Shown: piece after piece, positions 37,632 to 50,385 of the stretch | Numbering within the stretch: the stretch's first letter is position 1 | How the letters are laid out: the number at the start of each line of letters is the position of its first letter | Source: Candidatus Beckwithbacteria bacterium GW2011_GWC1_49_16 | Lineage (GTDB): Bacteria; Patescibacteriota; Microgenomatia; UBA1400; CG1-02-47-37 | Length of the DNA stretch: 64,000 nucleotides | Direction: 5' to 3' | NCBI GenBank assembly: GCA_001029675.1 | Contig: CP011210.1 | Coordinates: 711,528 to 775,527 of the forward strand | Made by a program: the position numbers and the translations under genes | Notes under the pieces: generated by a model | Databases searched by the model: none | Seen by the model: only the letters and a program-made list of their open reading frames with translations | What the model was told of the DNA's origin: nothing

Positions 37632-38280
37632 AGCCGAGGTGGCAGTTTTTTTGGCGTTGCTGTTGGCGACGGTAGGCTGGTTGTGGTACAGATTAAACTT
37701 GACCCAGGAGGAGTTGACGGCTTTAAAAAATCAAGAGCAGACGGCTGAAACGATCCAAGCGGCAGCGGCGGATATTTTTCCCGACGGCCAGATAGAGTCC
37801 TTAAACATCGAGGTGCTTGAAGTAATGCTGGCGAGCCTGTCGGCCAGACTTGAAGTTTTAGAAGCCGGCGGCGGTCAAAGCGGTCAAGGCGGTCCGGCCC
37901 CGGCCCCGGCAACCACGACCACGGTTTCATTTCAACCCCAAGTGATTTATCTGGGTGCGGCCAGCACCCAAAACCGCGACTGGACCGAAACGGGGCAGGC
38001 AGTGACCATCAACTCCGGCGACTACCCTGCTGACGTTTCGGCTACTTTTGAGGCCGGGTTGTCGATTGTCGGCGGCGAAGCCTGGGCAAGGCTTAAGAAC
38101 AAAACCACCGGAGCGGTGTTGTCGGTCACCGAAGTGATGCATAATAATAGTAGTACCACCTGGAAAACTTCCCCTGCCTTTAAACTTCATTCCGGCTACA
38201 ACAATTACGTGGTGGAATTAAAATCGTCAAGCGGCGAGACCGTCAATCTTGCCGGAGCCAGAATCAGGATTAGTCGATGA
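37618..38280 (+). CDS. membrane-anchored hypothetical protein
   Basis: 220 aa; TM + coiled region + beta-rich C-term. Confidence 0.4.
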   Translation: MKWFKAEVAVFLALLLATVGWLWYRLNLTQEELTALKNQEQTAETIQAAAADIFPDGQIESLNIEVLEVMLASLSARLEVLEAGGGQSGQGGPAPAPATTTTVSFQPQVIYLGAASTQNRDWTETGQAVTINSGDYPADVSATFEAGLSIVGGEAWARLKNKTTGAVLSVTEVMHNNSSTTWKTSPAFKLHSGYNNYVVELKSSSGETVNLAGARIRISR

Positions 38281-38630
38281 AAAACAAGTTCGGCTTAACC
38301 AAAGTCTGGAAGAAGTGGCTGACGGTAGTTTTTGTAGTGGCGGTTTATCACCTGCTGCGTGACATCTTCCAGGAGTTTTTTAAGCTAAGCTTCTGGTTTA
38401 CCGATTTTTTACACTTTGTGCCGGACAAAAACGCGCTCCCCCGGAAACTCCAGTGGCTGCTACTTGACGGCTACAGCCAGTGGTTGACCTTTCCGGTGGA
38501 GATCTTTTTAATCTGGGCCGTTCCCAAGGCGTGGAAAAAGGAATACTTCGCTACTATTGACGCGCTGGTGTTGACGACGGTAATGGTAACCGAAACCTGG
38601 TGGCTGTTGACGGTGATAAACTACAGCTAG
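38277..38630 (+). CDS. membrane hypothetical protein
   Basis: 117 aa, 3 TM, Trp-rich. Confidence 0.35.
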   Translation: MKNKFGLTKVWKKWLTVVFVVAVYHLLRDIFQEFFKLSFWFTDFLHFVPDKNALPRKLQWLLLDGYSQWLTFPVEIFLIWAVPKAWKKEYFATIDALVLTTVMVTETWWLLTVINYS

Positions 38631-38818
38631 CCCTTCGACAGACTCAGGGTTATAACCCCCTCTCGTGGTAAAATACACATGCCTTGCCGCGTGCGAGCGG
38701 AGCGAGCTTTACGCGGCCCCATCGTTCCCGGTCCGATCGCGACATTAGTGGGATCGTGACCGAGGATCCTCGACCTCGATTTCATCGAGTCGGGACTAAC
38801 GATTAAGATAATTAATTA

Positions 38819-39073
38819 ATGAATAATGTTTATATCTTACAGTCTTTAAAAAATGGTAGATATTACATTGGTTGCACAAGTGACTTAAAGTCTCGGCTGG
38901 TTAAACACAACAAAGGGCATGTTCTATCAACTAGGCCTTACAGGCCGTGGCGTCTGGTCTATCAAGAAAGGTATAATACATTATCAGCCGCAAGGAAAAG
39001 AGAGAATCAAATAAAGTCTTGGCACAAACGAGCGGCTATTGAAAAGTTAATACGCGGTCCCGATCACGGCTAA
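38819..39073 (+). CDS. GIY-YIG nuclease-domain protein
   Basis: 84 aa; VYILQS..GRYYIGCTSDLKSRLVKHN...RPWRLVY GIY-YIG signature. Confidence 0.7.
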   Translation: MNNVYILQSLKNGRYYIGCTSDLKSRLVKHNKGHVLSTRPYRPWRLVYQERYNTLSAARKRENQIKSWHKRAAIEKLIRGPDHG

Positions 39074-39091
39074 TAGCCTGATCGAAATCGG

Positions 39092-39166
39092 GGCCCCATC
39101 GTCTAACGGTTAGGACGCAAGGTTCTCAACCTTGTAATCCGGGTTCGATTCCCGGTGGGGTCACCA
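39092..39166 (+). tRNA. tRNA-Glu (anticodon CTC)
   Basis: cloverleaf folded by hand: acceptor GGCCCCA/TGGGGTC, D-stem GTCT/GGAC, anticodon stem CAAGG/CCTTG, loop TTCTCAA, T-stem CCGGG/CCCGG with TTCGATT loop, encoded CCA. Confidence 0.85.
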
Positions 39167-40661
39167 TTTTGGAAATGGCAGCAGAATTGGGGGCAGCGCT
39201 GGCTGCGCCCCCCTCCGCAGACAGCGCTGCAAAGGGATATTTTAAGTCCGGCCGGAGGTGCCGATTAAATAAAGAATAGTTCGAGCCGACAGTTTTTGCC
39301 ATGATTGCCAAATCATGGCACTCATTTTTTGCGCGCGCGATTTTTTGCGCCTGCAAGGCGCTAATTACGAATTCCCTCATAAGTTCGAGCCAAGAAGAAC
39401 CACTTTTTGAAACTCTGGCAATTTGCTCCGCAATTTTTAACTTCTCGTCAAATAGTTCGTTTTTCTTTTGTTTATAAACTTCCGGTTCCACTACTTGATC
39501 TAAATAGCCATCCAATAAACGGTTTAATTTTGTTTCAATTTCTTTTTGGTTCTCGCCAAGCCTTTGTAATTCCGTTTCAGAATTTGCCTGATCTTTTAAT
39601 TCGTCTGCCGCCATCCACTTTTCAAAATATGGCTCCCAATCTTGGTGCAAGCCGCAATCACCCACAACTTTTTTTAGTTGTTGCTCAATTTCATCTTCGG
39701 GAGCATATTTTTGCAAACAAGGTTTCAGCTTTTTAGTACAGCGATAATAGATAAAAGTTTGCGAAGTTCCATTTTTATACTTTTTAATATGTTGTTCGGC
39801 GGTGATTGCGGCGCCGCACTCGCCACAAGTGGCTAAACCGGAAAAAGCAAAATCATGGCCATGTTGTCGTGGACGTAAGATTTTTTCCACTTGCTTTTGT
39901 ACTTCCTTAAATAGTTGTTTGGAGATGAAGCATTTGTGGGAACCCTCGTAATATTCGTTAGCATATTTTAAAATCCCCACATAAAACTTGTTTGATAACA
40001 TTCGCTTTATTTGGTCAACTTTAATAGGTTTCCCACAACTTTCCCGATTCATCCCAAACCTAAAACAAAAGTTTGAAATTTCCGTAAAAGATTTATTGCC
40101 TTCGGCAAAAAGTTGAAAAGCTTTTTTAACAACTTTAGAAAGTTCGGGGTCAACATCAACGGCTCTGGTTTTAGGATTATTAATGTAACCATAAGGCGCT
40201 TTACTCGGCCACTCACCACGCCGAAGTTTTTGCCGATTGCCCCGTTTTACATTTTCCGATAAATTATCCACATAATATTTTGACTGGCCGAAGGCAATTG
40301 ATAACATAAATTTTCCTTGGGGAGTATTTTCAAACCAAAAAGACGGAAATTTCAAATCCAAAAGTTTTCCGGTATCCAGTAAATAGATTACTTTCCCGCC
40401 ATCAACTGAATTTCTAGCCAATCTGTCTGGATGCCAGGAAATTATGCCCTGCGCTTCGCCTTTCTCAATTTTCTTCAACACTAGCGCAAATTGCTCACGA
40501 CCTGGCATTTTGGCGGTTTTGGCTTCGGTAATAAATTCAGTTATTTCTAAATGGTCACGTTTGGCAAATTCTTTTAATTCTGCAATTTGCGCTTCAATAG
40601 ATAAAACTTGTTTATCTTTTTCATCAGTTGATTTTCGGCAATATGCTATGTATTTATTCAT
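39126..40661 (-). CDS. large serine recombinase (resolvase N-domain + recombinase domain + Zn ribbon)
   Basis: 511 aa; catalytic N-domain YCRKSTDEKDKQVLSIEAQ..., long C-terminal recombinase/coiled-coil region with Cys cluster (CGECGAA...C); 3' end overlaps tRNA-Glu antisense. Confidence 0.9.
   Translation of the reverse strand: MNKYIAYCRKSTDEKDKQVLSIEAQIAELKEFAKRDHLEITEFITEAKTAKMPGREQFALVLKKIEKGEAQGIISWHPDRLARNSVDGGKVIYLLDTGKLLDLKFPSFWFENTPQGKFMLSIAFGQSKYYVDNLSENVKRGNRQKLRRGEWPSKAPYGYINNPKTRAVDVDPELSKVVKKAFQLFAEGNKSFTEISNFCFRFGMNRESCGKPIKVDQIKRMLSNKFYVGILKYANEYYEGSHKCFISKQLFKEVQKQVEKILRPRQHGHDFAFSGLATCGECGAAITAEQHIKKYKNGTSQTFIYYRCTKKLKPCLQKYAPEDEIEQQLKKVVGDCGLHQDWEPYFEKWMAADELKDQANSETELQRLGENQKEIETKLNRLLDGYLDQVVEPEVYKQKKNELFDEKLKIAEQIARVSKSGSSWLELMREFVISALQAQKIARAKNECHDLAIMAKTVGSNYSLFNRHLRPDLKYPFAALSAEGGAASAAPNSAAISKMVTPPGIEPGLQG
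39161..39262. repeat. inverted repeat IR-A (~95-100 bp), left boundary of recombinase segment; begins in tRNA 3' end TCACCA
   Basis: reverse complement of 40767..40870 with 1-2 mismatches, compared by hand. Confidence 0.85.
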
Positions 40662-40766
40662 ACTTTGCTTTTGTACTCTTGTAACATATTGTAACTTGTT
40701 CTTTTAAAAAGTTCTTTAAATATCTACCTTATTAATTTTTGCGTTTTTTCTTCTGTTCTTTTTTTA

Positions 40767-40870
40767 CGGCAACTCCGACCGGACTTAAAATATCCCTTTG
40801 CAGCGCTGTCTGCGGAGGGGGGCGCAGCCAGCGCTGCCCCCAATTCTGCTGCCATTTCCAAAATGGTGAG
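40767..40870. repeat. inverted repeat IR-B, partner of IR-A
   Basis: ...ggcagcgctggctgcgcccccctccgcagacagcgctgcaaagggatattttaagtccgg... in opposite orientation. Confidence 0.85.
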
Positions 40871-40996
40871 CGTTTACGAAAAAATTCGAACCTTTTTTAA
40901 AAATTGTTAACGCATTGCGTCAGCTCCTCGCTCGCCTTCGGCTCGCTTCGTCGCTATTCGCGTTCTGCGCGGCGCCCCCACCCGCCGCGCCTCCGA
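40865..40996. repeat. inverted repeat IR-C (~131 bp), left boundary of cargo segment
   Basis: reverse complement of 48364..48495 essentially identical. Confidence 0.85.
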
Positions 40997-41316
40997 AAAC
41001 TGTCGGCTCGAATCCTAAAGAAAAAACGCAAAAATTTTAAAGAACTTTTTCAATGTCCTATAACTTAAATGGCCGTTCTGGTTGTACTCAACTCGGATTG
41101 CTCCAAATTGTCCAAAACGGCCATTAAAAAAAGCAATCCGAAAAAAGTTGAGTACAATTAAAATATACAAAGTTTCAACATCAAAAACAAGAGTCTCTTG
41201 CATTTGTTTTTTAGCGTGGTATTTGATATAAATATCATAGTACAATAAATCTAGATTTTCGATGATTAAAGTATGATATGCTTAAAGAAAATGCTGTCAA
41301 AATTGGGAGCGCCAAC

Positions 41317-41335
41317 GAGAGAGAGAGAGAGAGAG
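41317..41335 (+). repeat. (GA)9G dinucleotide tract
   Basis: gagagagagagagagagag between an upstream ATG (41273/41291, frame 2) and the in-frame signal peptide of the giant ORF (frame 0). Confidence 0.9.
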
Positions 41336-41636
41336 TAAACGGCTTCGCCGTTTTGTAACAACTTTCCTTCTAATTTTATCTTTACTTCTTCAAAATTTTT
41401 TATTCCTTATTAATCCTGTCTACGCCGCAACTAATTCTTGGGATTTTTCAACTTCGTCTAATTACACTTATGATGATACAAAAATTGAATTTTCTTCGGG
41501 TCAAGCGCAACTAAAAGCAACTTCAAATTGGTACAACACTTCATGGTCAAGGCGTAAAGCAATTACAGTTACAGGTTCTACGGCGGGTGCACAAACAAAT
41601 TATCAACTTAAACTTACAGTACCTTATGATTCGGAC

Positions 41637-44600
41637 ATGCAAGCAGATTTTGATGATATAAGGTTTACATCTTCTGATGGGACTACTTTAATTGATCACT
41701 GGCTAGAGTCGAAAACGGATTCAACTACTGCTGACTTTTGGGTAGAGATTCCATCAATTCCAGCCTCTCCAAATACCACAATGATATACATATATTACGG
41801 AAATTCCAGTGCGAGCAGTGCTTCAAATGGAGACAACACATTTCTTCTTTTTGATAATTTTGATGGGGTATCTATGGATGGCTTTTCTCGGGTAAGCCAA
41901 CAAACACTTTTTTCTGGAAGTGGAAGTGAAGATTGGTTAGGGAGAACTGTTTTTGTTGATGATGGATCGAAGTGGGTATTGGTTTATAGACAAGCTGCTA
42001 ATCATTGCTGTGATACTGCAGCAGTCATGCATATTCGGTTTTCGACAAATGAAGGTGCTTCATGGACAAATGCTGATACATTTACGAATGGCTCGGCTGT
42101 TACTGGAGCACCCTTCAGTCGACACTCAACAAATGCCGTTGCTGATCCTGTCCTTATGAAAGCACCAAACGGCGACTTGCTACTTCATGTAGGAGAGGTG
42201 AACAGCGGAGGAAATCCTATGGGTGCATACCAATATCGTAGCACTGATGGTGGCGCAACATGGACTGACGAAGGTTTAATAAACAATGACACTGAGATAT
42301 ATAGCGGCCAGGATTATACAACTGTAGATAATGATCTCTATGCTATCTTTTGGAAAGATGCAGGATCGGATGGTGCTCCTTACCAAACCTTACTTTATAA
42401 ATCAACTGACAACGGAATAACATGGGCACTAGTGAGCCCGATAACAACAAGCGGTACTGATGAAGGGGGGATTGAATACGTTGGAAGTAATACATTGCTG
42501 GTTGTTCTTAGGGACACGCCAGCAAGCAAAACTTATCAGAGAATTTCAACAGACTTAGGACAAACATGGGGTACACAAACAGATATTTCATCTTCGGTTG
42601 GAGTATTGCAGCGACCAAGAATGAGAATATTTTCTGATGAGCCTAACAGAGTGTATCTATATGGACGTGATCAATTGGCTGGAAATGACTATACGGTTCT
42701 TTACTACACTGATAATAATGGTTCAACATGGAGTTTAAAATTTTATCCAGATACAACATCATATGCGGATACCGGCTATTCAGATGTTTTAAAACAGACA
42801 GACGGTGATTTTTATATGCTTTCTTATGGAGGAACTAGTGGTACATCAAGTATTAAAGAATACATTTTCAATAAGAGCGCGACATTACAAATAGATACAA
42901 CAAAGTGGACAACTGATAATGCTACTACGTCAATTTCTAACTCCCAGTTAACATATCAAGAAACAGATACAAATATTACGTGGGGCGTCGTTAAATCAGT
43001 AAATTCAGTTTCTCGCCCATTTATTGCTGAAATTGACTATACGTTAACAAGCGGTGAATATGCACATTTTATGTACGGACCTAATCCTGATTCTGCTCAA
43101 TCTACTGCGAATGGTTATGTTTGGTGGATCGACATTAATGACCCAACAAACCCAATGCAGGACTTGACCAGAGTTGAAGACGGCACTTTTAATGACATTC
43201 AACGCAATGTTCAAGTTTCCCCGGATATTGCCAATAACGAAACTTTTAATCAAAAATTTATATTTCATAGCACTGGAGAAACGGCTTTAACAAACGGGAC
43301 ACAATATATTTCGGGAAGCGATACAACCTATTCGTCGGGAAAAATAGCATTAGGAACTGATAGTGGATCAGTTGTAAAAGTAAATACAATTAAAGTCCGC
43401 GTGTATGCAAATCCCGAACCCACAAGCTCAATAGGCTCAGAAGCTACTTTGTATGATACTTCTAACCCTACAGTACAACCAACTTCTGCAAACTCACTGA
43501 CTTTTGTATCATTATCTGCGTTTTCAGAAACAGCGACAAAAAATGGAGGACAAATTAAGTACCAGGTTTCTAATGATAGTGGCACCACTTGGTGCTGGTA
43601 CAGCTCTGGATGGACAACAACGAGTTCCGGTTATTCAGAATCCAACACTGCGAGTGATGTTAATACAAATATTTCTACGTTTCCCGTCGGAAGCGGATCG
43701 TTTTTATTCAAAGCTTATCTGAATTCTGATGGTTCTCAACTTGTTCAACTTGATGCCATAGGGGTAACTTATGTAGCCGACAATACGCCGCCATCTATTT
43801 CTTTAACGGCACTGAGTCCTGATCCAAATACTGACACCACACCTACTCTTTCCGGGACAGCCACAGACACTCAAGGGACAGTGTCTAATGTCCAGTTTCA
43901 AATGGACTCAACTTCCGGTTCGTGGACTGCTTGTACTGCAGGTGATGGAAGTTTTGATGAGACAACGGAAACTTTTACCTGTACTCCTTCGGCATTATCT
44001 GACGGAAGTCATACTATGTATGTCCGTGCAACAGATAGTAACAGCAACACGACTTCTAATGCCAATGCGTCCACCGATAGTTTTACGATTGATATTACTA
44101 CTCCCGCCTCTTTTGATTTAGATTCGCCCGGAGATAATTCGTATACTAATTCCGAAAGACCAACTTTTAAGTGGAAAGCGACAACAGATGCAACCGCCGG
44201 ACTTTCTAAATATGTTTTGGAAATAGACAATCCTTCGATCGGCTCTGGCCAACCTTCTGGTGACTTCACTATTGATAGTATTCCCACCAGTAGAACAACT
44301 GATTACGAAACAAATAAATATACCATCCATTACGAAAACTTCTCGGATTCTGATTCCACAAATAATTATATTTCTGTCTATACCAAATCACACAATGATT
44401 GGGGTTCATCTGAAAATGACGGAAAACTTAGAGAAGGAAAAGTAAGTTGGAAAGTAAAAGCAGTTGATAATGCCGGTAATGAAAGATCTTCTTCTCGAAC
44501 TATGTTTATGGACAAGACTTCCCCATCTGTAGTATTCACTCAAATAAACAGTACGCCTTACACAACTAATAATTTCTTGACCACAGATAAAACACCAACT

Positions 44601-45725
44601 ATCTTTGGAAAAATAACTGATTCATTATCCGGTGGCGATTCGTCACAAACTCAAGATGAAAACGGGCCAAAAGTTGCCAGTGCTCCTAAAGAAGTAAATA
44701 TTAAGGTGGAGAAAAAAGAAGGATTAACTTACAAGCTTGTAACATTGTACAAGATCAATATGGATAATCCATACTATACTTGCGACCTAAACAAAACTAT
44801 AGATAACTCAAAACAAAAATGCGATAAATATTTGCCTTTTGAATACACACCAAAAGAGATCTTAAATTTAGGGACTTATAAAATAACTCTTTCTGGAAAA
44901 GATAAGGCAGATAACACGTCGTCAGAAACAAGCTTTACTTTAAATATCACCACCCTAGCTCAAATCACTACACCTGAAGAAAAAGAAATTATTGAGGAAG
45001 GAATAAAAGAGTTACCCAAGGAAGAACAGGAAAAAGTAAAAGAAGAACTAGAAATCACTAAACCATCTGAAACACCACAACCAAATATTTTAGAAAAGGC
45101 TAGTCAGGGAGTTGTTAACATAAGCAAAAACATTATTCATGGAGCTGGTAACTTAATTACTACAATATTTACTGGAATTGGTAACGGAATAAGCTTTGTA
45201 TTTAATGGTGTTGGTTCAGGCCTAGCGTTTATGGGTAATACTATTGGGAACAGCTATAGTACTCTTGTTGATCATGCGCCTGGTGTTACCAAAAATATTT
45301 TGTTAGCGGTAGGAACTAATGTTAATAATGCAATCAATGAAGCAAGAAATGGAATCGCAAACCTCGCCTTTAGTATTGGCGAAAAAACAGATGATGTTTC
45401 TCATGGTGTAGGAACCGCGATTATTAAGATCGGTTATCTGTTCGTACCGGAAGCCACCAAAATATCTAACGTTACAGCAGTTGCGCTATCTCCCATGTCA
45501 GTCAGGATAACATGGGAAACAAATCATCCAGCAAACGGCAAAGTAAACTGGGGGTTTGAAGATGGAATATATGAATTTGAGGATCAAACACACAAAAGAA
45601 CCAGTAAGCATGAATTTGTTCTTGAAAATCTCAAACCCGATACTGAATATCATTATGAAGTCATGAGCCAAAACAGAAATTATGTATATGACGCTAACCG
45701 GAAATTTAAAACTCCGGCAAAATAA
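41637..45725 (+). CDS. giant secreted surface protein: DUF2341-like N-region, 5x Asp-box (BNR) sialidase-like propeller, Ig/FN3-like C-terminal domains
   Basis: 1362 aa from first in-frame ATG; open frame extends upstream to 41286 and encodes a signal peptide (FLLILSLLLQNFLFLINPVYA/AT) with no in-frame start: see (GA)n finding; Asp-boxes STNEGASW, STDGGATW, STDNGITW, STDLGQTW, TDNNGSTW. Confidence 0.8.
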   Translation: MQADFDDIRFTSSDGTTLIDHWLESKTDSTTADFWVEIPSIPASPNTTMIYIYYGNSSASSASNGDNTFLLFDNFDGVSMDGFSRVSQQTLFSGSGSEDWLGRTVFVDDGSKWVLVYRQAANHCCDTAAVMHIRFSTNEGASWTNADTFTNGSAVTGAPFSRHSTNAVADPVLMKAPNGDLLLHVGEVNSGGNPMGAYQYRSTDGGATWTDEGLINNDTEIYSGQDYTTVDNDLYAIFWKDAGSDGAPYQTLLYKSTDNGITWALVSPITTSGTDEGGIEYVGSNTLLVVLRDTPASKTYQRISTDLGQTWGTQTDISSSVGVLQRPRMRIFSDEPNRVYLYGRDQLAGNDYTVLYYTDNNGSTWSLKFYPDTTSYADTGYSDVLKQTDGDFYMLSYGGTSGTSSIKEYIFNKSATLQIDTTKWTTDNATTSISNSQLTYQETDTNITWGVVKSVNSVSRPFIAEIDYTLTSGEYAHFMYGPNPDSAQSTANGYVWWIDINDPTNPMQDLTRVEDGTFNDIQRNVQVSPDIANNETFNQKFIFHSTGETALTNGTQYISGSDTTYSSGKIALGTDSGSVVKVNTIKVRVYANPEPTSSIGSEATLYDTSNPTVQPTSANSLTFVSLSAFSETATKNGGQIKYQVSNDSGTTWCWYSSGWTTTSSGYSESNTASDVNTNISTFPVGSGSFLFKAYLNSDGSQLVQLDAIGVTYVADNTPPSISLTALSPDPNTDTTPTLSGTATDTQGTVSNVQFQMDSTSGSWTACTAGDGSFDETTETFTCTPSALSDGSHTMYVRATDSNSNTTSNANASTDSFTIDITTPASFDLDSPGDNSYTNSERPTFKWKATTDATAGLSKYVLEIDNPSIGSGQPSGDFTIDSIPTSRTTDYETNKYTIHYENFSDSDSTNNYISVYTKSHNDWGSSENDGKLREGKVSWKVKAVDNAGNERSSSRTMFMDKTSPSVVFTQINSTPYTTNNFLTTDKTPTIFGKITDSLSGGDSSQTQDENGPKVASAPKEVNIKVEKKEGLTYKLVTLYKINMDNPYYTCDLNKTIDNSKQKCDKYLPFEYTPKEILNLGTYKITLSGKDKADNTSSETSFTLNITTLAQITTPEEKEIIEEGIKELPKEEQEKVKEELEITKPSETPQPNILEKASQGVVNISKNIIHGAGNLITTIFTGIGNGISFVFNGVGSGLAFMGNTIGNSYSTLVDHAPGVTKNILLAVGTNVNNAINEARNGIANLAFSIGEKTDDVSHGVGTAIIKIGYLFVPEATKISNVTAVALSPMSVRITWETNHPANGKVNWGFEDGIYEFEDQTHKRTSKHEFVLENLKPDTEYHYEVMSQNRNYVYDANRKFKTPAK

Positions 45726-45727
45726 AT

Positions 45728-46057
45728 ATGGATAAAATTAATTTAAACAAAGATCAAAAGTTAGTTGTGGACTCTTTCTATAAAGTTAGGACCAAGAAAG
45801 GTTTAAACAGTTTTATTGAGGATTTATTTTCACCGGAAGAAACATTAGATTTAGCCCAACGACTAAAAATCGCTAAGTTAATTCTTGACGGAAAAACTTA
45901 CGAAGAAATTGCGGCAGAAATTCCTGTCAGTACCTCAACCATTTCAAAAATAGGCCAAGTAATTAAATTCGGAAAAGGTGGTTTTATTCTCTTGCAGAAT
46001 AATACAAAAGCACAAAAAGCTAAAAAGCAAAACGGAAAGGAGGTATCAAAAATATGA
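45728..46057 (+). CDS. TrpR/YerC-like HTH protein
   Basis: 109 aa; ...SPEETLDLAQRLKIAKLILDGKTYEEIAAEIPVSTSTISK... Confidence 0.5.
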   Translation: MDKINLNKDQKLVVDSFYKVRTKKGLNSFIEDLFSPEETLDLAQRLKIAKLILDGKTYEEIAAEIPVSTSTISKIGQVIKFGKGGFILLQNNTKAQKAKKQNGKEVSKI

Positions 46058-46428
46058 TTAACTTAGAATTTCAAATTTATCATTTACTAACAGGGCTTGC
46101 CGGAGGATTAGTTCGTGGATTAGTTGGAATAATGAAACAAACCCAGAAACCGGACGAGTTTAAAATTCATTGGAAATATTTTGGTTTAACCATGTTAGTT
46201 TCAGGAGTTGTTGGGGTAGTGTCAGGAATTATTGCTGATGGCGATTGGAGAATATCGTTACTTGCCGGATACGCTGGCACTGATTTTCTGGAAAGTCTTT
46301 ACAGATTAAGATTCCCTCAAATGTTCAGTATTGCTCAAACCGTTAAAACGGTAACAGAAGAAAGTAACACCGGAAAAGTAACAACACAAACAACTACGCC
46401 AGTAACAGCACCAGTAGTGACAAAATAA
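46054..46428 (+). CDS. small 2-TM membrane protein (holin-like topology)
   Basis: 124 aa; two TM helices, Thr/Val-rich tail. Confidence 0.35.
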   Translation: MINLEFQIYHLLTGLAGGLVRGLVGIMKQTQKPDEFKIHWKYFGLTMLVSGVVGVVSGIIADGDWRISLLAGYAGTDFLESLYRLRFPQMFSIAQTVKTVTEESNTGKVTTQTTTPVTAPVVTK

Positions 46429-46433
46429 AAAAA

Positions 46434-47585
46434 CTAGAAGTGGTAGATAGTGGCTTTGCCTTTTCCTTCAGTTTTGATTGTTCCTCGTTCTACTAAATCT
46501 TCTAGGTAATTAGTCGCGGTGCTTTGGGAAACATGAAGTAATTCTCTTACATCATCATTGTTGATTTGTTTTTTCACTTCAATTAGTTTTTCGATCTTCA
46601 TTAAATTTTCTTCCCGCTTTGTTTGTCTGGCGTGATTAGCTTTTAATCTTCTAGCTTCCAACTCTGTATTTAATTTGTCATCAACCCGTTGTTGAATTTC
46701 CTCATCACTGACCTGTGGAGCTTGAGGAACTTGGGGTTTTTCTGCTGGTTTTTCCGGCTCAATGTTGATTGTTGGTTCTGGTTGCGGAATAACTGGTTCC
46801 GGTTTTGTTTCTTCTGGCAGTTTTTGTTCTTCAATTGGCGGAGTTTGAACAGGTGGTGTCTCTGTCGTTTCTTGTTTTGGTTCCTCTTTTTGAGATGGTA
46901 AAGAAAGATAAGGAGAAGGATCAATAAAACCAAGGTAACCATTTGCTAAATCGGGATTGTTTGGTTTGATTGCAAAATGTAAATGTTCGCCAAAAGCGGC
47001 ACCCGATGAACCGGATAAACCAATAACTTTGTTAATTCCAATCTCATCGCCTTCTTTGACTTTTGTTTCTTGAAGATGTCCATAAATTGATTGTCCCCAG
47101 GAATGTTGAATTGTGATTGATGTTCCAAAATCGCCATTATCTCCAGACTGAATAACTTTTCCAGAATCACAAGGAAAAACTTCATTTCCGGCAGATAAAC
47201 CAAAATCTAAACCGTTATGTCCAACAATTCCCCACTCCTGAAGTTTCTTTTTAATTTTTTCGTTGGCTGATTGCTGGCCAAAAGAAAAAGTAACCGGAAA
47301 ATTACCGGAGAACGGATAATGTAAAGCGGGAATGTTAATAATCGGCGGAGAAACAGGAGGTACGCTTTCTGTCGGTGGTGTTTCTGTTATTGTTTCGGCG
47401 GGTTGTGGCATTTCTGCTGTTGGTGTTACAGTCGGGGGTGTTTGTGTTTGCTCTGGTGTTGCTTGTACCGGTGGAGTTTTCATCGGCGGATGGTCAGTCG
47501 AAGGAATCACTGGATTTGTTGTTTCCGTTGTTGTTTGGTTTTGGTCTTGGGGAATATCATCAGCCATATATAAACAGTGTATCAA
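46434..47585 (-). CDS. M23 (LytM-type) metallopeptidase with Pro/Thr/Glu linkers and C-terminal winged-HTH
   Basis: HNGLDFG...HLHF M23 His motifs; C-terminal ...DVRELLHVSQSTATNYLEDLVERGTI... wHTH; no obvious signal peptide. Confidence 0.75.
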   Translation of the reverse strand: MIHCLYMADDIPQDQNQTTTETTNPVIPSTDHPPMKTPPVQATPEQTQTPPTVTPTAEMPQPAETITETPPTESVPPVSPPIINIPALHYPFSGNFPVTFSFGQQSANEKIKKKLQEWGIVGHNGLDFGLSAGNEVFPCDSGKVIQSGDNGDFGTSITIQHSWGQSIYGHLQETKVKEGDEIGINKVIGLSGSSGAAFGEHLHFAIKPNNPDLANGYLGFIDPSPYLSLPSQKEEPKQETTETPPVQTPPIEEQKLPEETKPEPVIPQPEPTINIEPEKPAEKPQVPQAPQVSDEEIQQRVDDKLNTELEARRLKANHARQTKREENLMKIEKLIEVKKQINNDDVRELLHVSQSTATNYLEDLVERGTIKTEGKGKATIYHF

Positions 47586-48363
47586 AATGGGACAAGGAAA
47601 TCTTTTGTCTTCTTCTCTTGTTTTTCTTTTTGTTGTTGGCGGCTCCCCCGCCCCCGCCCCGTTGAGAACACAAAGCTAAAAAGGAGGGAACGCGACAGAA
47701 AACCATCGAAGGAGTACAGCCTTTCAAAGAGCGTTCCCGACTAACGCGAGCCCGCAAAGATTTACTTTGTTTTAAAAGAAACCAGCGGGCGAGCCCATCG
47801 AGAGTCATCGCGCAGGGCGCTAAAATAAAAAAGCGCGAAGCGCTTAACCTTAAGCGGGCGCGCAAGCCCTGATAAAACAGGAAGGGGTACAAATAAAGAA
47901 GGCGGGGGCGAAAAAGCGGATACCCCAGAACGCGCGAGCCTTAAAAGTCAAAACAAAAGATGAGCCCCGCTCGCAAGCGGGGCGAGGGACGCGCAGTAGG
48001 AACTCTTAGAAAAGTAAAGCCGTTGTCGCAACCCGCCCCTAGGCGGGTCAGCGCGCGATGAATGGGGTCGCCGCCAACAATTAATCGGGAGGGTGGGTTG
48101 ATACGGAATACAGAATAACCATTTAAACTTTAGTCATGTAGTCTTGTACACTTCTACAAAAGCAAAGTATCTACAGAGGGGCGGGAAACCGCCGGAAGGA
48201 ATTTTGATCTTGTTCTTCCGTTTGGCTTGGCGAGAACCAAAAAAGTGGTGGAACCGGAAGTTTTGTGCTTGGAATCGGCCAATTTCCACCATTTTGGCCG
48301 ATTCATTTGTGGTATTATAGGGAAAGCGGAAGCTTTCCAAAAATCGCGCGCGCAAAAAATGAG

Positions 48364-48495
48364 CGGAGGCGCGGCGGGTGGGGGCGCCGCGCAGAACGCG
48401 AATAGCGACGAAGCGAGCCGAAGGCGAGCGAGGAGCTGACGCAATGCGTTAACAATTTTTAAAAAAGGTTCGAATTTTTTCGTAAACGCTCACCA
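48364..48495. repeat. inverted repeat IR-C', partner of IR-C; ends in TCACCA core (attR-like)
   Basis: as above; followed by aattttgcc resembling sequence after tRNA. Confidence 0.85.
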
Positions 48496-48562
48496 AATTT
48501 TGCCACTAAAAAATCCCCTGCTTTTTTAAACCAATGGTGATTTAAGGGTATGAAGCTAAAAG

Positions 48563-48847
48563 TTATTGCTGTTGACCGAAGCCTCCGCCGTCTTGTCTGG
48601 GAGGCCGGGCGACGTCGACCCTTAAGGGCCGGCCGTCGAGATCCTGGCCGTCAAACATTTCTTTAGCTTTTTGCATTTCCTCGGGGGTTGACATGGTTAC
48701 GAAACCAAAACCCTTGGAACGCCCGGAGGCTTTGTCGGTGATGACGATAGCATCAGTGACAGTACCGGCCTGGGAAAAATGCTGCTTTAATTGATCGGTG
48801 GTAACTGTGTAGGATAAGTTGCCTACGTAAAGTTTGTTGTTGTCCAT
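48563..48847 (-). CDS. RRM-type RNA-binding protein (glycine-rich tail)
   Basis: 94 aa; RNP2 LYVGNL, RNP1 KGFGFVTM. Confidence 0.8.
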   Translation of the reverse strand: MDNNKLYVGNLSYTVTTDQLKQHFSQAGTVTDAIVITDKASGRSKGFGFVTMSTPEEMQKAKEMFDGQDLDGRPLRVDVARPPRQDGGGFGQQQ

Positions 48848-48975
48848 TAATTAATTCACCACCCTTCAAGAGGGTAAATATTAGAGGAAATTAGAGCAAA
48901 ATGGGAAGGGTGCATGAGGTGGAAGAAGTGGGGGTTTTTTAATCTGTCCTTCTGATTATAAAGCAAACTCAAAAA

Positions 48976-50385
48976 CTAGCAAGAGGCAGTTGGGCAGTAG
49001 AGGTTAAAGGTGGCTACCGGGTGGAGAAAGGCGTCCAAGAAGCTGGGGCGGGAGACGACGGTGAAATGGGTGACAAACTTGTCGCCGAAAACTAGCCCGT
49101 CTTTTTGAAGCTGAAGCGACAGGTTATATTCGCCGGGAACGTCCGGAGTAGCGACAACCAAGTTAAGCTTGGCTTCCGCAAATGGTTCGGTAACGGGTAG
49201 AGGGCTGACGGAGATTGACCCTGCCGGCAAGTTGGTGGCAAAATTCAAGCTATAGTTTTCTTTATCCCAGATCGACTGACCCAAGTTTTTTATTTTGAAG
49301 GAAAAGGCGTAGTGGTAGTCGACGACCAACTTGTCGGGCAAGACGGCGTCGGCAAATTGACCGTAGTGGATTTGTTCCGGGTCGCCGGCGGGTTTGTCTA
49401 AGTTTTTGACGGCCTCAAACTGGGGGTAAAAACTTCCCTCCGGCTTTTGCCAGGAAAACCGACCAAAAGGATCCTGGGGGTAATTTAAAACAAAAGGGGT
49501 GACGGCGACGACCCGAGGATCCTGCCAGATTTGAGTGAAGGCGGTGGTAAAGTAGTCGGCGACGGCCTGGGGGGTGTGGGCGCCCAAGACTTTTTCCTGG
49601 TTGTGGGCCCAGCCGGTTTCGGTGATAAAAACCGGTAAGTTGGGGCCGACGCCGAAACGGGAGAGATAGTTTAGCTCGGATTTAAAACTCTCGACCGAAC
49701 CAAGACCGGTAGCGGCGGGCGAGCCGGAAAAATCAGGGTTGGGGTAAGAATGGGAGGTCCAGCCGTCAAAATGGGTAAAAAAATTGGGGTCGTAATCAAA
49801 CGCCCAGGAAAGGTAGGTAAGTAAAGTCATGGTCGAGGCGGAGTCGGGGGCGGCGGCGTCTAGCCCCGCCGGCAGAACGAAAAAATCATCAGAGGCGGCT
49901 TTAAGCTCCCGGCTAAAGGCGGCGGCCACGGCCACGTATTCTTCGGGTTTGACTTCCCCGCCCCATTCTTGGGCGTGGTTGGGCTCGTTGAATAAAACAA
50001 CGTAGCGATTCTTGACCACCCAGTTTAAGGAGTTTAAAAACTGGCTCCAGGCGACGGCATCTTCGGGACGGGGTTTGGCCCAGCCGCCGTCTTCGGCGTG
50101 GGTAGCCAGCCTTACCAGAGGGATGAGGCGGTAGCGACGGAGAGAATCAAAGATTTCCTGCCACTTGGCAACATCTCTATCGCCGTCCTCGATGACTAAG
50201 GTGACGTAACCCCAAGTGCCGCCGGAGCTGTTGACCAGCTTGGCGGCGGCGGGGATGTCACCTTCACTCAAGATGTGAATGCCGTAAAGGTTGTTGGGAG
50301 AAGACAAAGGCGAGACGACGGCGTGGGCGCCAGCCGGAAAGAAAATGAGGGCCAGGGCAATAAAAAACAAGATAAGCTTTTTCAT
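48976..50385 (-). CDS. secreted clan GH-A glycoside hydrolase (GH5-like)
   Basis: start set at MKKLILFFIALALIFFPAGAHA signal peptide; NEP (VVLFNEPNH) acid/base and ITETGW nucleophile motifs. Confidence 0.6.
   Translation of the reverse strand: MKKLILFFIALALIFFPAGAHAVVSPLSSPNNLYGIHILSEGDIPAAAKLVNSSGGTWGYVTLVIEDGDRDVAKWQEIFDSLRRYRLIPLVRLATHAEDGGWAKPRPEDAVAWSQFLNSLNWVVKNRYVVLFNEPNHAQEWGGEVKPEEYVAVAAAFSRELKAASDDFFVLPAGLDAAAPDSASTMTLLTYLSWAFDYDPNFFTHFDGWTSHSYPNPDFSGSPAATGLGSVESFKSELNYLSRFGVGPNLPVFITETGWAHNQEKVLGAHTPQAVADYFTTAFTQIWQDPRVVAVTPFVLNYPQDPFGRFSWQKPEGSFYPQFEAVKNLDKPAGDPEQIHYGQFADAVLPDKLVVDYHYAFSFKIKNLGQSIWDKENYSLNFATNLPAGSISVSPLPVTEPFAEAKLNLVVATPDVPGEYNLSLQLQKDGLVFGDKFVTHFTVVSRPSFLDAFLHPVATFNLYCPTASC

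What the first reader, a model, noticed from the sequence alone, without database searches (positions are those of the whole stretch)
39092..48504. tRNA-Glu-anchored 9.3 kb element with two nested pairs of long inverted repeats around a large serine recombinase
Seen directly:
- tRNA-Glu(CTC) ends ...GGGGTCACCA at 39166.
- Starting inside its last 6 nt (TCACCATTTTGGAAATGGCAGC...), a ~95-100 bp sequence (39161..39262) recurs as a near-perfect reverse complement at 40767..40870.
- These two copies bracket only the 511-aa serine recombinase gene.
- Immediately abutting, 40865..40996 recurs as a reverse complement at 48364..48495. This second pair brackets a 7.4 kb AT-rich cargo: giant surface protein, TrpR-like HTH, 2-TM protein, M23 peptidase.
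- The right outer copy ends ...CGTAAACGCTCACCAAATTTTGCC, so the hexamer TCACCA lies in direct orientation at both outer ends, like attL/attR of an element integrated into the tRNA 3' end.
- The central 230 bp (40767..40996) read in reverse is [right-end arm]-TCACCA-TTTTGG-[left-end arm], i.e. it looks like an attP-type junction of the two element ends, present in inverted orientation inside the integrated element.

Two readings:
(a) Two adjacent DNA-invertible segments sharing a central site, flipped by the resident serine recombinase (a double 'inverton').
(b) An integrative element carrying an internal inverted copy of its own junction.

Either way it implies active site-specific recombination at a cell-surface-protein locus. 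This arrangement does not match textbook IS, integron or prophage layouts as far as I can recall.
Basis: partly seen in the sequence, partly recalled or inferred. Interest (0 to 1): 0.85.

Follow-up and report, generated by a model that had tools for sequence, protein, structure and literature searches.

The report
tRNA-inserted recombinase element with inverted internal site
This is a real 9.3 kb mobile element inserted at the end of a tRNA gene by a large serine recombinase, and it belongs to a large family in ultra-small groundwater bacteria, with no description found in four searches, whose members all keep a flipped spare copy of their own insertion site inside the element.

Summary
tRNA-Glu(CTC) ends at 39166. 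A 103-nt inverted repeat (arm A, 98%) brackets only a 511-aa large serine recombinase (LSR). An abutting 132-nt inverted repeat (arm B, 100%) brackets 7.4 kb of low-GC cargo. The two pairs overlap by TGGTGA, the reverse complement of the tRNA's last six bases.

The three sites read T-O-A (attL), A'-O'-B' (an inverted attP) and B-O-F (attR). The host is Candidatus Beckwithbacteria GW2011_GWC1_49_16.

This is not a one-off. Of 80 related loci in Microgenomates genomes, 69 have the recombinase flanked by arm A next to a tRNA of at least 11 specificities. Thirty-nine also show the abutting arm-B pair around unrelated cargo of 1.1-8.7 kb.

Mobility is supported by an empty-site comparison, by near-identical recombinases at different tRNAs, and by one locus where the internal attP has recombined with a second tRNA.

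The cargo segment occurs in both orientations in independent assemblies. The recombinase segment was never seen flipped, and no circle or empty site was found for this locus.

Best reading: an LSR integrative cargo element whose internal inverted attP makes both modules invertible but not separately excisable. I found no prior description.

The parts
39092..39166 (+). tRNA-Glu(CTC). It is intact, with encoded CCA. It forms the left (B-type) half of the original attB.
   Evidence: ARAGORN; Rfam RF00005, 64 bits.
39161..39166 (+). Core O (TCACCA) at attL. It corresponds to tRNA positions 71-76.
   Evidence: Overlap of the two repeat families. In related loci the core covaries with the tRNA.
39161..39263 (+). 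Arm A, tRNA-side copy (the P' half of attP). Weaker similarity continues to about 39279.
   Evidence: Pair I2, 103 nt, 98%. The extension is seen by BLAST.
39280..39345 (+). Conserved modules inside the recombinase 3' end: r2 (39280-39296), hairpin h2 (39297-39320) and r3 (39321-39345). On the + strand, h2 plus the following T-run reads as a terminator after the tRNA.
   Evidence: Terminator-like hit at 39297-39320 with tail CTCATTTTTT. r2 and r3 recur 100% identical at the ends of the cargo segment. The h2 stem covaries between loci.
39126..40661 (-). Large serine recombinase gene, 511 aa. The ORF runs through arm A and stops inside the tRNA on the antisense strand.
   Evidence: Pfam PF00239, PF07508 and PF13408. 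Closest solved homologue is SPbeta SprA/YokA, E = 3.6e-16. The protein is AKM79548.1.
40734..40752 (-). Module r1 (AAGAAAAAACGCAAAAATT) upstream of the recombinase start. It looks like a promoter or operator box.
   Evidence: It lies just upstream of the RBS and ATG in most loci. An inverted copy occurs at the centre-proximal end of the cargo.
40767..40869 (+). Arm A', central copy.
   Evidence: Pair I2. Its inner end is a mosaic in strain L001, indicating gene conversion.
40864..40869 (+). Core O' (TGGTGA) of the internal inverted attP.
   Evidence: Six-nt overlap of pairs I1 and I2.
40864..40995 (+). Arm B', central copy (the P half of attP). It contains GGTTCGAAT, a mimic of the tRNA T-loop placed 4 nt farther from the core than in the tRNA.
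   Evidence: Pair I1, 132 nt, 100%. The motif and its spacing are conserved in 39 loci. A small hairpin plus T-run points toward the core.
40996..41036 (+). Centre-proximal cargo leader, with an r2 copy (40996-41012) and an r1 copy (41018-41036) reading into the cargo.
   Evidence: Exact short matches to the recombinase 3' end and to the recombinase upstream region.
41278..45725 (+). Giant secreted DUF2341/BNR/Ig-like/FN3 protein gene. The ATG at 41278 is out of frame with the signal-peptide-coding part (from 41337) because of the (GA)9 tract at 41317-41335.
   Evidence: ORF and Pfam results. Frame analysis from the sequence. (GA)9 is found in all 11 sequences carrying the tract: the window and 10 independent contigs.
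45728..46057 (+). Trp-repressor-like HTH protein (cargo).
   Evidence: PF01371, E = 4.4e-14.
46054..46428 (+). 124-aa protein with hydrophobic stretches, taken as a small membrane protein (cargo); no transmembrane prediction was run.
   Evidence: ORF. No Pfam hit. Homologues occur in the cargo of L030, L031 and L032.
46434..47585 (-). M23 peptidase with a C-terminal HTH-like tail (cargo).
   Evidence: PF01551, E = 1.9e-19.
47586..48338 (.). GC-rich non-coding stretch at the far end of the cargo. It includes collinear remnants of the recombinase 3' end at 48224-48263.
   Evidence: GC about 0.50. Pairs I8 and I9. Fold z-score -3.6. No Rfam match.
48339..48363 (+). r3 copy abutting arm B.
   Evidence: Pair I4, 25 nt, 100%. 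The same placement is seen in most related loci.
48364..48495 (+). Arm B, far copy, ending in core TCACCA (48490-48495). Together with the flank it forms attR.
   Evidence: Pair I1. Sequence.
48496..48530 (+). F, the original tRNA trailer (right half of attB). It is not conserved between loci.
   Evidence: Sequence. Comparison of F sides across loci.

Best explanation
The region 39161-48495 is an integrated mobile element of Candidatus Beckwithbacteria. It is driven by a large serine recombinase (LSR) that targets the 3' end of tRNA genes.

Inferred integration step. An element site, attP = B-O-A, recombined with attB = tRNA-O-trailer. The crossover lay within tRNA positions 71-74. This produced attL (tRNA-O-A) and attR (B-O-F). 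The tRNA stays intact, and the element supplies a hairpin plus T-run terminator behind it.

Shown half-site mimicry. Arm B carries a T-loop mimic, GTTCGAAT, 4-5 nt farther from the core than the tRNA's own T-loop. That is the geometry expected for a P-type versus a B-type LSR half-site.

Shown distinctive feature. A second, complete attP of about 100 nt on each side of the core sits inside the element, between the divergently arranged recombinase and cargo modules. It is inverted relative to attL and attR.

Inferred consequences.
- The recombinase module is bracketed by inverted A arms, and the cargo module by inverted B arms.
- Any recombination between the internal site and an outer site, whether by the LSR at the core or by homologous recombination in the arms, can only invert a module. 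It cannot delete one.
- Recombinase and cargo therefore stay linked, and only the whole element could leave, by attL x attR.

Shown or supported activity.
- Cargo inversion does occur at low frequency.
- The internal attP is live: in a related genome it has recombined with a second tRNA gene.

Inferred and untested. Whole-element excision would give a circle with two inverted attP copies separating the two modules.
For: LSR identity:
- Pfam domains and a match to SprA.

Three-site logic with a shared core:
- In the window.
- In 39 fully resolved loci, with the core covarying with tRNA identity: TCAC, CAGC, CGAC, GCAC, CCAC, GCTC and others.
- 69 of 80 related loci have arm A flanking the recombinase next to a tRNA.
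- A B-type arm lies left of arm A in nearly all loci where no far copy was detected.

Mobility:
- LSRs 89-95% identical sit at tRNA-Glu(ctc), Glu(ttc), Lys(ttt) and Val(gac).
- Members of the same 90% cluster end in antisense read-through of different tRNAs.
- Between species, only the recombinase module plus the centre is conserved at 85-90% DNA identity.
- WIN, L030 and L031 share four cargo gene families at three different tRNAs.
- tRNA-Leu(gag) and tRNA-Val are 3-24 nt apart in L081 and L087, but are split by a 2.8 kb element with core GCAC in L100.
- The element is low in GC.

Live internal attP:
- In L093 the recombinase is flanked by tRNA-Glu(ttc)-O-A and A'-O'-tRNA-Glu(ctc). The sister locus L079 is in the standard state.

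Cargo inversion:
- L013, the first 141-mer of L009 and L103.

Arm homogeneity:
- Arms are a median 98% identical within an element, against 87% (A) and 93.5% (B) to the nearest other element.
- A gene-conversion mosaic is seen in strain L001.

Terminators:
-.
Against: - No empty tRNA-Glu site was found for this locus. The exact 38-mer search of JGI contigs gave 0 hits.
- No B-O-A-recombinase-3' junction, which would mark a circle or a flipped recombinase module, was found (0 hits).
- All contigs read for the flanking genes are occupied.
- No directionality factor gene is conserved among the cargos, so excision is unproven.
- If a circle with two equivalent attP copies were the mobile form, half of all insertions should be in the doubly flipped state. 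None of 69 is. Either the two copies are not equivalent, or the intermediate is something else.
- Canonical LSRs do not recombine attP with attL or attR (my knowledge, from phiC31 work). The observed cargo inversion may therefore be RecA-mediated.
- L013 could be an assembler's arbitrary path through a 132-nt perfect repeat. The L009 evidence rests on five terminal bases.
Confidence: 0.6

Rival explanations
1. Domesticated double inverton. The LSR is a dedicated invertase that flips the cargo segment, and possibly its own gene, to phase-vary cargo expression. The tRNA adjacency would be incidental to site recognition.
For: - Both modules are bracketed by long inverted repeats.
- The cargo is found in two orientations.
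- r1 promoter-like boxes diverge from the centre.
- The flanking RRM gene reads into the element, so orientation could change which genes receive read-through.
Against: - Orientation is strongly biased: 38 of 39 cargo segments and 69 of 69 recombinase segments are in one state.
- Cargo is unrelated between loci and mostly metabolic or transport genes.
- The same recombinase sits at many different tRNAs, and empty sites exist in relatives.
- The core overlap with the tRNA end is what integration predicts.
Confidence: 0.15
2. Cassette platform, analogous to an integron or to recombinase-mediated cassette exchange. The recombinase module plus the centre would be a resident platform at a tRNA. Cargo cassettes, each formatted as r1-genes-hairpin-r3 with arm sequences, would be captured, stacked or swapped by LSR recombination between sites that share a half-site.
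For: - Cargo is unrelated between elements whose recombinase modules are 85-90% identical.
- Conserved r1, r2 and r3 frames surround every cargo.
- L007 has recombinase plus host flank 100% identical to the window, but a different sequence beyond 41013. L005 diverges beyond 41382.
- L045, L058 and L059 carry extra B-bearing junctions, all in the orientation expected for stacked cassettes; those of L045 and L059 keep part or all of an A arm.
Against: - No free cassette circle was seen.
- Only 3 of 69 loci show extra junctions, and L045 looks rearranged rather than cleanly stacked.
- Whole elements with homologous cargo occur at different tRNAs, which argues for movement en bloc.
- Cargo swapping could be plain homologous recombination in the arms.
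Confidence: 0.15
3. Assembly artefact. The inverted repeats and the central junction would be chimeric joins produced by the assembler or by amplification.
For: Many contigs break inside the repeats. Arm B shows indel variants in its GC-rich inner part.
Against: - The same junctions appear in more than 20 independent assemblies made by different pipelines, including k141 contigs that span whole arms.
- The same architecture appears in about 70 unrelated genomes, each with its own arm sequences.
Confidence: 0.02

Closest known systems
Serine-integrase (LSR) integrative elements and prophages, such as phiC31, Bxb1, A118 and SPbeta SprA
   Same: - Same three-domain recombinase.
- Short shared core between the sites.
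- Pseudo-symmetric half-sites, with a motif placed farther out on the element-derived arm.
- The recombinase gene lies next to the att site.
   Different: - A complete second attP is kept inside the integrated element, in inverted orientation.
- The duplicated site spans about 100 nt on each side of the core, far longer than the roughly 50-bp attP sites I know of.
- The target is the extreme 3' end of many different tRNAs.
- No directionality factor is recognisable.
- Elements are as small as about 3 kb, with a single cargo gene.
Tn4451/Tn5397-type LSR transposons (TnpX, TndX); comparison from my own knowledge
   Same: - Small cargo-carrying elements moved by a single LSR without a separate directionality factor.
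- The recombinase gene sits at an element end.
- In Tn4451 the circle joint forms the recombinase promoter. Here the recombinase is permanently preceded by a joint-like B-O-A.
   Different: - Those elements have no internal copy of the joint and no long inverted repeats.
- They use GA-dinucleotide targets, not tRNA ends.
- Their circular form has been demonstrated, which is not the case here.
Tycheposons of Prochlorococcus (bioRxiv 10.1101/2020.12.28.424599)
   Same: tRNA-targeting integrative elements that carry variable cargo in streamlined genomes. A minority use an LSR.
   Different: - 910 of 937 use tyrosine recombinases, and many carry replication genes.
- No internal inverted attP or IR-flanked modules are described.
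- The host phylum is different.
Hin/Gin/Cin-type invertible segments
   Same: A serine recombinase gene inside (Hin) or next to (Gin) a segment flanked by inverted sites. The segment is found in two orientations.
   Different: - Those use small invertases with 26-bp sites and a Fis enhancer (my knowledge).
- Here the enzyme is an LSR and the arms are 103 and 132 nt.
- Orientation is strongly biased.
- The element is mobile between tRNAs.
Yeast 2-micron plasmid (FLP/FRT)
   Same: If this element were excised, it would be a circle with two inverted copies of the recombinase target separating two unique regions, one of which encodes the recombinase.
   Different: - This is purely an architectural analogy.
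- No circle and no replication functions were found.
- FLP is a tyrosine recombinase acting on identical sites.
Integrons, and engineered recombinase-mediated cassette exchange
   Same: A recombinase next to a primary site, variable promoter-proximal cassettes, and occasional stacked junctions. Cassettes between inverted sites can be exchanged or flipped but not excised.
   Different: - The recombinase is a serine, not a tyrosine, enzyme.
- There are no attC hairpin sites.
- The whole unit including the recombinase is itself mobile.

Membership tests
Large serine recombinase (serine integrase) family | N-terminal resolvase catalytic domain | tested here: met
   PF00239, residues 5-151, E = 4e-20.
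Large serine recombinase (serine integrase) family | Recombinase domain plus zinc-ribbon domain C-terminal to the catalytic domain | tested here: met
   PF07508 (residues 172-260) and PF13408 (residues 273-332). Residues 4-409 align with SPbeta SprA/YokA, E = 3.6e-16.
Large serine recombinase (serine integrase) family | Coiled-coil motif in the zinc-ribbon domain that controls directionality | not tested
   A charged, heptad-like stretch follows the zinc ribbon (sequence). No structure prediction was run.
LSR-type integrative element (attP x attB) | attL and attR share a short core with each other and with attP; the flanks are recombinant | tested here: met
   T-O-A, B-O-A and B-O-F with O = TCACCA. 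The same logic holds in 39 loci.
LSR-type integrative element (attP x attB) | Uninterrupted attB in related genomes | tested here: inconclusive
   Met at family level: tRNA-Leu and tRNA-Val are adjacent in L081 and L087 but split in L100. tRNA-Glu or tRNA-Lys is occupied in some genomes and free in others. Not met for this locus.
LSR-type integrative element (attP x attB) | Excised circular form, with or without a directionality factor | tested here: not met
   The junction search gave 0 hits in JGI contigs. There are no close relatives in IMG/VR. No gene is conserved among the cargos. Raw reads were not available.
Serine-invertase inverton (Hin/Gin type) | Small serine recombinase with a C-terminal HTH | tested here: not met
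   The protein is a 511-aa LSR with recombinase and zinc-ribbon domains.
Serine-invertase inverton (Hin/Gin type) | Both orientations coexist in a population | tested here: inconclusive
   Cargo segment: L013 and L009 against more than 20 standard contigs. Recombinase segment: never flipped.
Integron | Tyrosine IntI integrase with attI and attC sites | tested here: not met
   The recombinase is of the serine type. The sites are LSR-like pseudo-dyads, not attC hairpins.
2-micron-type amplification plasmid | Autonomous circle with an origin and partition genes, and recombination between the identical inverted repeats | tested here: inconclusive
   No replication gene was found in the cargo. No circle junction was found, though only JGI contigs were searched. 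Recombination between the repeats was not tested.

The most novel reading that the evidence does not exclude
The conserved three-site palindromic layout may be an adaptation that lets the element move or rebuild its attP without an excision step or a directionality factor.

One version: in a single strand of the integrated element, for example after DNA uptake by a competent CPR cell, arm A pairs with A' and arm B' pairs with B. The central A'-O'-B' strand is then covered by the two outer copies, giving a duplex attP with the host flanks as flaps.

Another version: the inverted site pairs act as a natural cassette-exchange platform on which an LSR recombines sites that share one half-site.

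Either would be a new mode of action for serine integrases.
Probability: 0.1. Interest if true: 0.92.

Novelty: new variant of a known kind. Interest (0 to 1): 0.72.

Why it matters
- Mobile elements of Candidate Phyla Radiation bacteria are poorly known. This family appears to be a major vehicle of accessory genes in Microgenomates. At least 7,919 protein clusters match the recombinase at E <= 1e-10, although that cutoff may include other large serine recombinases. There are often several copies per genome, carrying transporters, sugar-modifying enzymes, peptidases and surface proteins.
- The invariant internal inverted attP is a design principle not described for serine integrases. It raises testable questions about directionality control without a directionality factor, about autoregulation from a site between divergent promoters, and about how recombinase and cargo are kept linked.
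- These recombinases recognise the generic T-arm and acceptor end of many tRNAs through a half-site mimic. That is of interest for integrase engineering.
- The repeats systematically break short-read assemblies of these genomes at tRNA loci.
- The live internal attP can cause chromosomal inversions between tRNA genes, as in L093.

Tried and rejected
- Empty tRNA-Glu attB: an exact 38-mer spanning tRNA end and trailer gave 0 hits in JGI metagenome contigs.
- Circle or flipped-recombinase junction (B-O-A followed by the recombinase 3' end): 0 hits. Both metagenome scans are now used, and ENA or Logan assemblies cannot be pattern-searched.
- Contig look-ups for the flanking GIY-YIG and RRM proteins found only occupied sites.
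- Cluster members of the recombinase were inspected for the C-terminal tail predicted for a flipped recombinase module (...ISKMVSVYEKIRTFFKNC). None was found among the 10 retrieved; only 40 of 101 members were read.
- Phage origin: no close relative in IMG/VR.
- Rfam on 38000-50000 returned only the tRNA.
- The idea that the GC-rich 47.6-48.3 kb stretch is a decayed recombinase gene was rejected. Only three short collinear remnants exist.
- Synteny of the window's flanks with the closest recombinase homologues is absent, so there is no orthologous empty site from those loci.
- Promoter consensus scans near the centre are at background level and were not used.
- (GA)n length variation as evidence of slipped-strand switching: all 11 sequences carrying the tract (the window and 10 independent contigs) have (GA)9.
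- Literature: four full-text searches found no description of this architecture.
- I could not derive the standard layout from a single-attP circle by any one conservative recombination step. A symmetric two-attP circle conflicts with the 69 of 69 orientation bias.

Full report
**1. Observation**

ARAGORN finds one tRNA in the window, tRNA-Glu(ctc), at 39092-39166 on the + strand. Rfam confirms it at 64 bits.

The repeat finder on 38500-49500 reports two outstanding inverted pairs.
- Pair I2: 39161-39263 / 40767-40869, 103 nt, 98%.
- Pair I1: 40864-40995 / 48364-48495, 132 nt, 100%.
- Every other pair is 20-35 nt at 72-85%, apart from three short extra matches that turn out to be meaningful (see section 7).

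The pairs overlap by 40864-40869, TGGTGA. This is the reverse complement of TCACCA at 39161-39166 (tRNA positions 71-76) and at 48490-48495.

I write T for the tRNA, O for the core, A and B for the arms, and F for the right flank. The + strand then reads T-O-A ... A'-O'-B' ...

**2. Genes and host**

The only gene between the A arms is a 511-aa ORF on the minus strand (39126-40661). It carries Resolvase, Recombinase and Zn_ribbon_recom domains, so it is a large serine recombinase, or LSR. Its closest solved relative is SPbeta SprA.

Between the B arms lie several genes.
- A DUF2341/BNR/Ig/FN3 giant protein.
- A Trp-repressor-like HTH protein.
- A 124-aa protein with hydrophobic stretches, probably membrane-bound.
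- An M23 peptidase.
- A 0.75 kb GC-rich non-coding stretch.

GC content is 0.33-0.44 in the element against about 0.50 outside. The recombinase is AKM79548.1 of Candidatus Beckwithbacteria bacterium GW2011_GWC1_49_16.

**3. Not an artefact**

The recombinase, the flanking GIY-YIG and RRM proteins and the M23 peptidase were looked up in public assemblies. More than 20 independent contigs reproduce the window at 99-100% identity. They come from the ANAN16 scaffolds, MEGAHIT k127 and k141 runs, JGI and NCBI MAGs.

Many contigs stop inside an arm, as expected for repeats of this length. Several k141 contigs span whole arms.

**4. A recurrent architecture**

A scan of one genome per GTDB species found 321 stretches encoding relatives. 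The best 80, at 51-95% identity, are almost all Microgenomates-type Patescibacteria: Levy-, Woese-, Gottesman-, Collier-, Shapiro-, Daviesbacteria and others. Self-comparison of each locus showed the following.
- 69 loci have the recombinase flanked by an inverted pair of about 100 nt. The downstream copy overlaps a tRNA 3' end.
- 39 loci also have a second inverted pair that abuts the first and encloses 1.07-8.7 kb.
- Loci without a detectable far copy nearly all still carry a B-type arm left of arm A.
- The tRNAs include Glu, Lys, Val, Gln, Pro, Tyr, Arg, Leu, Ile, Trp and Thr.
- Some genomes hold several copies. L033, L047, L058 and L069 come from one Woesebacteria MAG, and L100 carries two elements.

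In every resolved locus the three sites read T-O-A, B-O-A (inverted) and B-O-F. The core is 2-6+ nt and equals the tRNA's own positions around 71-74, so it changes with the tRNA: TCAC(CA), CAGC, CGAC, GCAC, CCAC, GCTC and others.

Arm B always carries GTTCGAAnTTT...AAA near the core. This copies the T-loop GGTTCGAAnCC but sits 22-23 nt from the core, against 17-18 nt in the tRNA. To my knowledge, a recognition motif displaced outward by about 5 bp is what distinguishes attP from attB half-sites of serine integrases (work on the Listeria A118-type integrase). The F side is not conserved.

Identity between the two copies of each arm stays high for about 100 nt from the core and then falls to random.

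**5. Mobility**

- LSRs 89-95% identical to the window's sit at tRNA-Glu(ctc), Glu(ttc), Lys(ttt) and Val(gac).
- Members of the window protein's own 90% cluster end in antisense read-through of different tRNAs.
- Between species, DNA similarity of at least 85% is confined to the recombinase module plus the central site, about 1.6-2.0 kb. Flanks and cargo do not match.
- WIN, L030 and L031 share four cargo gene families while sitting at three different tRNAs. Recombinase and cargo therefore travel together.
- tRNA-Leu(gag) and tRNA-Val(tac) are 3-24 nt apart in L081 and L087. In L100 they are separated by a 2.8 kb element with core GCAC.
- tRNA-Glu and tRNA-Lys neighbours are alternately occupied or free in different genomes.

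For this particular locus I found no empty site and no circle.
- The T-O-F 38-mer and a B-O-A-recombinase-3' pattern each gave 0 hits in JGI contigs.
- All flanking-gene contigs are occupied.
- No close relative is in IMG/VR.

**6. Inversion**

Cargo segment.
- In JGI contig Ga0103680_10000002 (L013/L111) the right flank runs through arm B into window 40996 onward. The cargo is therefore inverted, at 100% identity.
- The first 141-mer of a k141 contig (L009) is TGAGC + arm B + TTTTG. This is the complementary junction, or a circle junction.
- The r-modules described in section 7 give each cargo segment a polarity. By that measure 38 of 39 loci share the window's orientation and L103 is flipped.

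Recombinase segment.
- It faces the tRNA with its 3' end in 69 of 69 loci.
- None of the cluster members I retrieved has the tail expected after flipping.

Inversion of the cargo therefore happens but is rare or disfavoured. Inversion of the recombinase module was not detected. Each line of evidence for cargo inversion has a weakness: an assembler may pick a path through a perfect 132-nt repeat, and L009 rests on five bases.

**7. Further conserved anatomy**

Three short boxes recur, usually 100% identical within a locus.
- r1 (GAAGAAAAACGCAAAAATTTTA) lies just upstream of the recombinase RBS and ATG. An inverted copy lies at the centre-proximal end of the cargo, reading into it.
- r2 (AAAAAGTCGGCTCGAAC) abuts arm A' within the recombinase 3' coding region. 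An inverted copy abuts arm B at the centre.
- r3 (AAAAATCGCGCGCGCAAAAAATAA) lies in the recombinase 3' end. An inverted copy abuts the far arm B.

A hairpin, h2, lies between r3 and r2. Its stem changes by paired substitutions between loci. On the tRNA strand it is followed by a T-run, so it is a terminator-like site after the tRNA (39297-39320). Arm B carries a small hairpin plus T-run pointing at the core.

The element is thus two divergent units leaving a central attP. Each unit ends in a hairpin/r3 module, an arm and a core.

**8. The internal attP is live**

In L093 the recombinase is flanked by tRNA-Glu(ttc)-O-A on one side and A'-O'-tRNA-Glu(ctc) on the other. The sister locus L079, 90.6% identical in DNA, has the standard layout at tRNA-Glu(ttc). 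This is the product expected if the central B-O-A recombined with a second tRNA attB on the same chromosome, causing an inversion.

L045, L058 and L059 carry extra B-bearing junctions in the orientation of the outer sites; those of L045 and L059 keep part or all of an A arm. These are compatible with stacked or rearranged cassettes.

**9. Arm maintenance**

Arm copies are a median 98% identical within an element. The nearest other element is 87% (A) and 93.5% (B) identical. Some elements have decayed to 83-94%.

In strain L001 the inner end of the central A copy is a mosaic of the window's two copies. Together these observations suggest occasional gene conversion between arms.

**10. Cargo**

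Cargo proteins of different elements are almost all unrelated. Examples are an MFS transporter, an aldo/keto reductase, an EamA transporter, a family-3 glycosyltransferase, an RmlD-like epimerase, a peptide deformylase and several unknowns. No gene is conserved that could serve as a directionality factor.

Within the window's own population, L007 matches recombinase plus host flank at 100% but diverges beyond 41013. L005 diverges beyond 41382, inside the giant gene's leader. Cargo therefore turns over quickly.

**11. Interpretation**

The evidence best fits an LSR-driven integrative cargo element that targets tRNA 3' ends and has one unusual, invariant feature: a full inverted attP between the recombinase and the cargo.

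Because that site is inverted relative to attL and attR, recombination with either outer site can only flip a module and cannot remove it. Recombinase and cargo therefore stay linked. The site also lies between the divergent r1 boxes, where a bound recombinase could autoregulate; that is an inference, by analogy with res in Tn3.

Whole-element excision would give a circle with two inverted attP copies, a layout like the 2-micron plasmid. This is not shown. A symmetric circle also predicts doubly flipped insertions, which are not seen. Either the two attP contexts are not equivalent or the intermediate is different.

A pure phase-variation inverton is disfavoured by the orientation bias and by the evidence for mobility. 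An integron-like or cassette-exchange platform remains possible.

**12. Novelty**

Four full-text searches returned nothing describing this layout. The nearest concept is the tycheposon. Tycheposons are overwhelmingly tyrosine-recombinase elements, and no internal inverted site is described for them.

The protein family is large: at least 7,919 clusters at E <= 1e-10 among the 8,000 candidates scored. That cutoff may include large serine recombinases outside this architecture. I rate this a new variant of a known kind, an LSR integrative element. It has real mechanistic interest and needs read-level and biochemical tests.

Noticed in passing
window 41278-41340: The giant surface-protein gene has no in-frame start for its signal-peptide-coding part (from 41337). 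The ATG at 41278 is put out of frame by a (GA)9 tract at 41317-41335, and (GA)8 would restore the frame. This looks like a slipped-strand OFF state, but all 11 sequences carrying the tract (the window and 10 independent contigs) have (GA)9.
   Followed up: partly
window 47586-48338: A GC-rich (about 0.50) 0.75 kb non-coding stretch upstream of the M23 peptidase gene has several strong hairpins. Fold z-score is -3.6 and there is no Rfam match. In the diverged strain L015 the aligned block containing it (window 54847-47518) is 98.9% identical, while the adjacent cargo genes are only 76-88% identical.
   Followed up: partly
window 39126-39166 (- strand); proteins P0010-P0014: The recombinase ORF reads antisense through arm A and into the tRNA. 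Homologues therefore end in different '..G(I/L/F)EP..' tails depending on the tRNA they sit next to. These tails are probably non-functional read-through.
   Followed up: yes
L007:1-87 and L005:1-206, relative to window 41013 and 41382: Contigs from other samples match recombinase plus host flank at 99.4-100% but carry different sequence beyond the central leader. This indicates alternative cargo or alternative giant-protein alleles in the same population.
   Followed up: partly
L093:9795-11595: The recombinase is flanked by two convergent intact tRNA-Glu genes (ttc and ctc), each joined to an A arm. This implies a chromosomal inversion between tRNA genes mediated by the internal attP. The reciprocal product was not located.
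   Followed up: partly
L045:6760-8165; L059:1-1001; L058:1900-2020: Extra B-bearing junctions lie upstream of the regular far site. Those in L045 and L059 keep part or all of an A arm. They suggest stacked or rearranged cassettes.
   Followed up: partly
arm B inner part: window 40930-40977 and 48351-48396; L001:1-100, L016, L026: The GC-rich inner half of arm B varies by indels between assemblies. L026 and L016 have 46-48-nt deletions, and L001 has a short tandem expansion.
   Followed up: no
proteins P0003 and P0005 (Beckwithbacteria GWB1_47_15 and GWA2_47_25): These recombinase variants have internal deletions of 22 and 41 residues in the C-terminal region. The deletions lie between short repeats (..KIA..KIA.. 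/ ..IA..IMAK) that overlap the r3/h2 DNA modules.
   Followed up: no
proteins P0057, P0074, P0087, P0093, P0116: Relatives of about 880 aa score about 860 bits at only 43-47% identity. This suggests two recombinase-like halves in one ORF, or two fused genes.
   Followed up: no
window 38819-39073 and several related loci: A small GIY-YIG protein gene lies directly upstream of the tRNA. Homologues recur near tRNA genes in at least 11 related loci.
   Followed up: no
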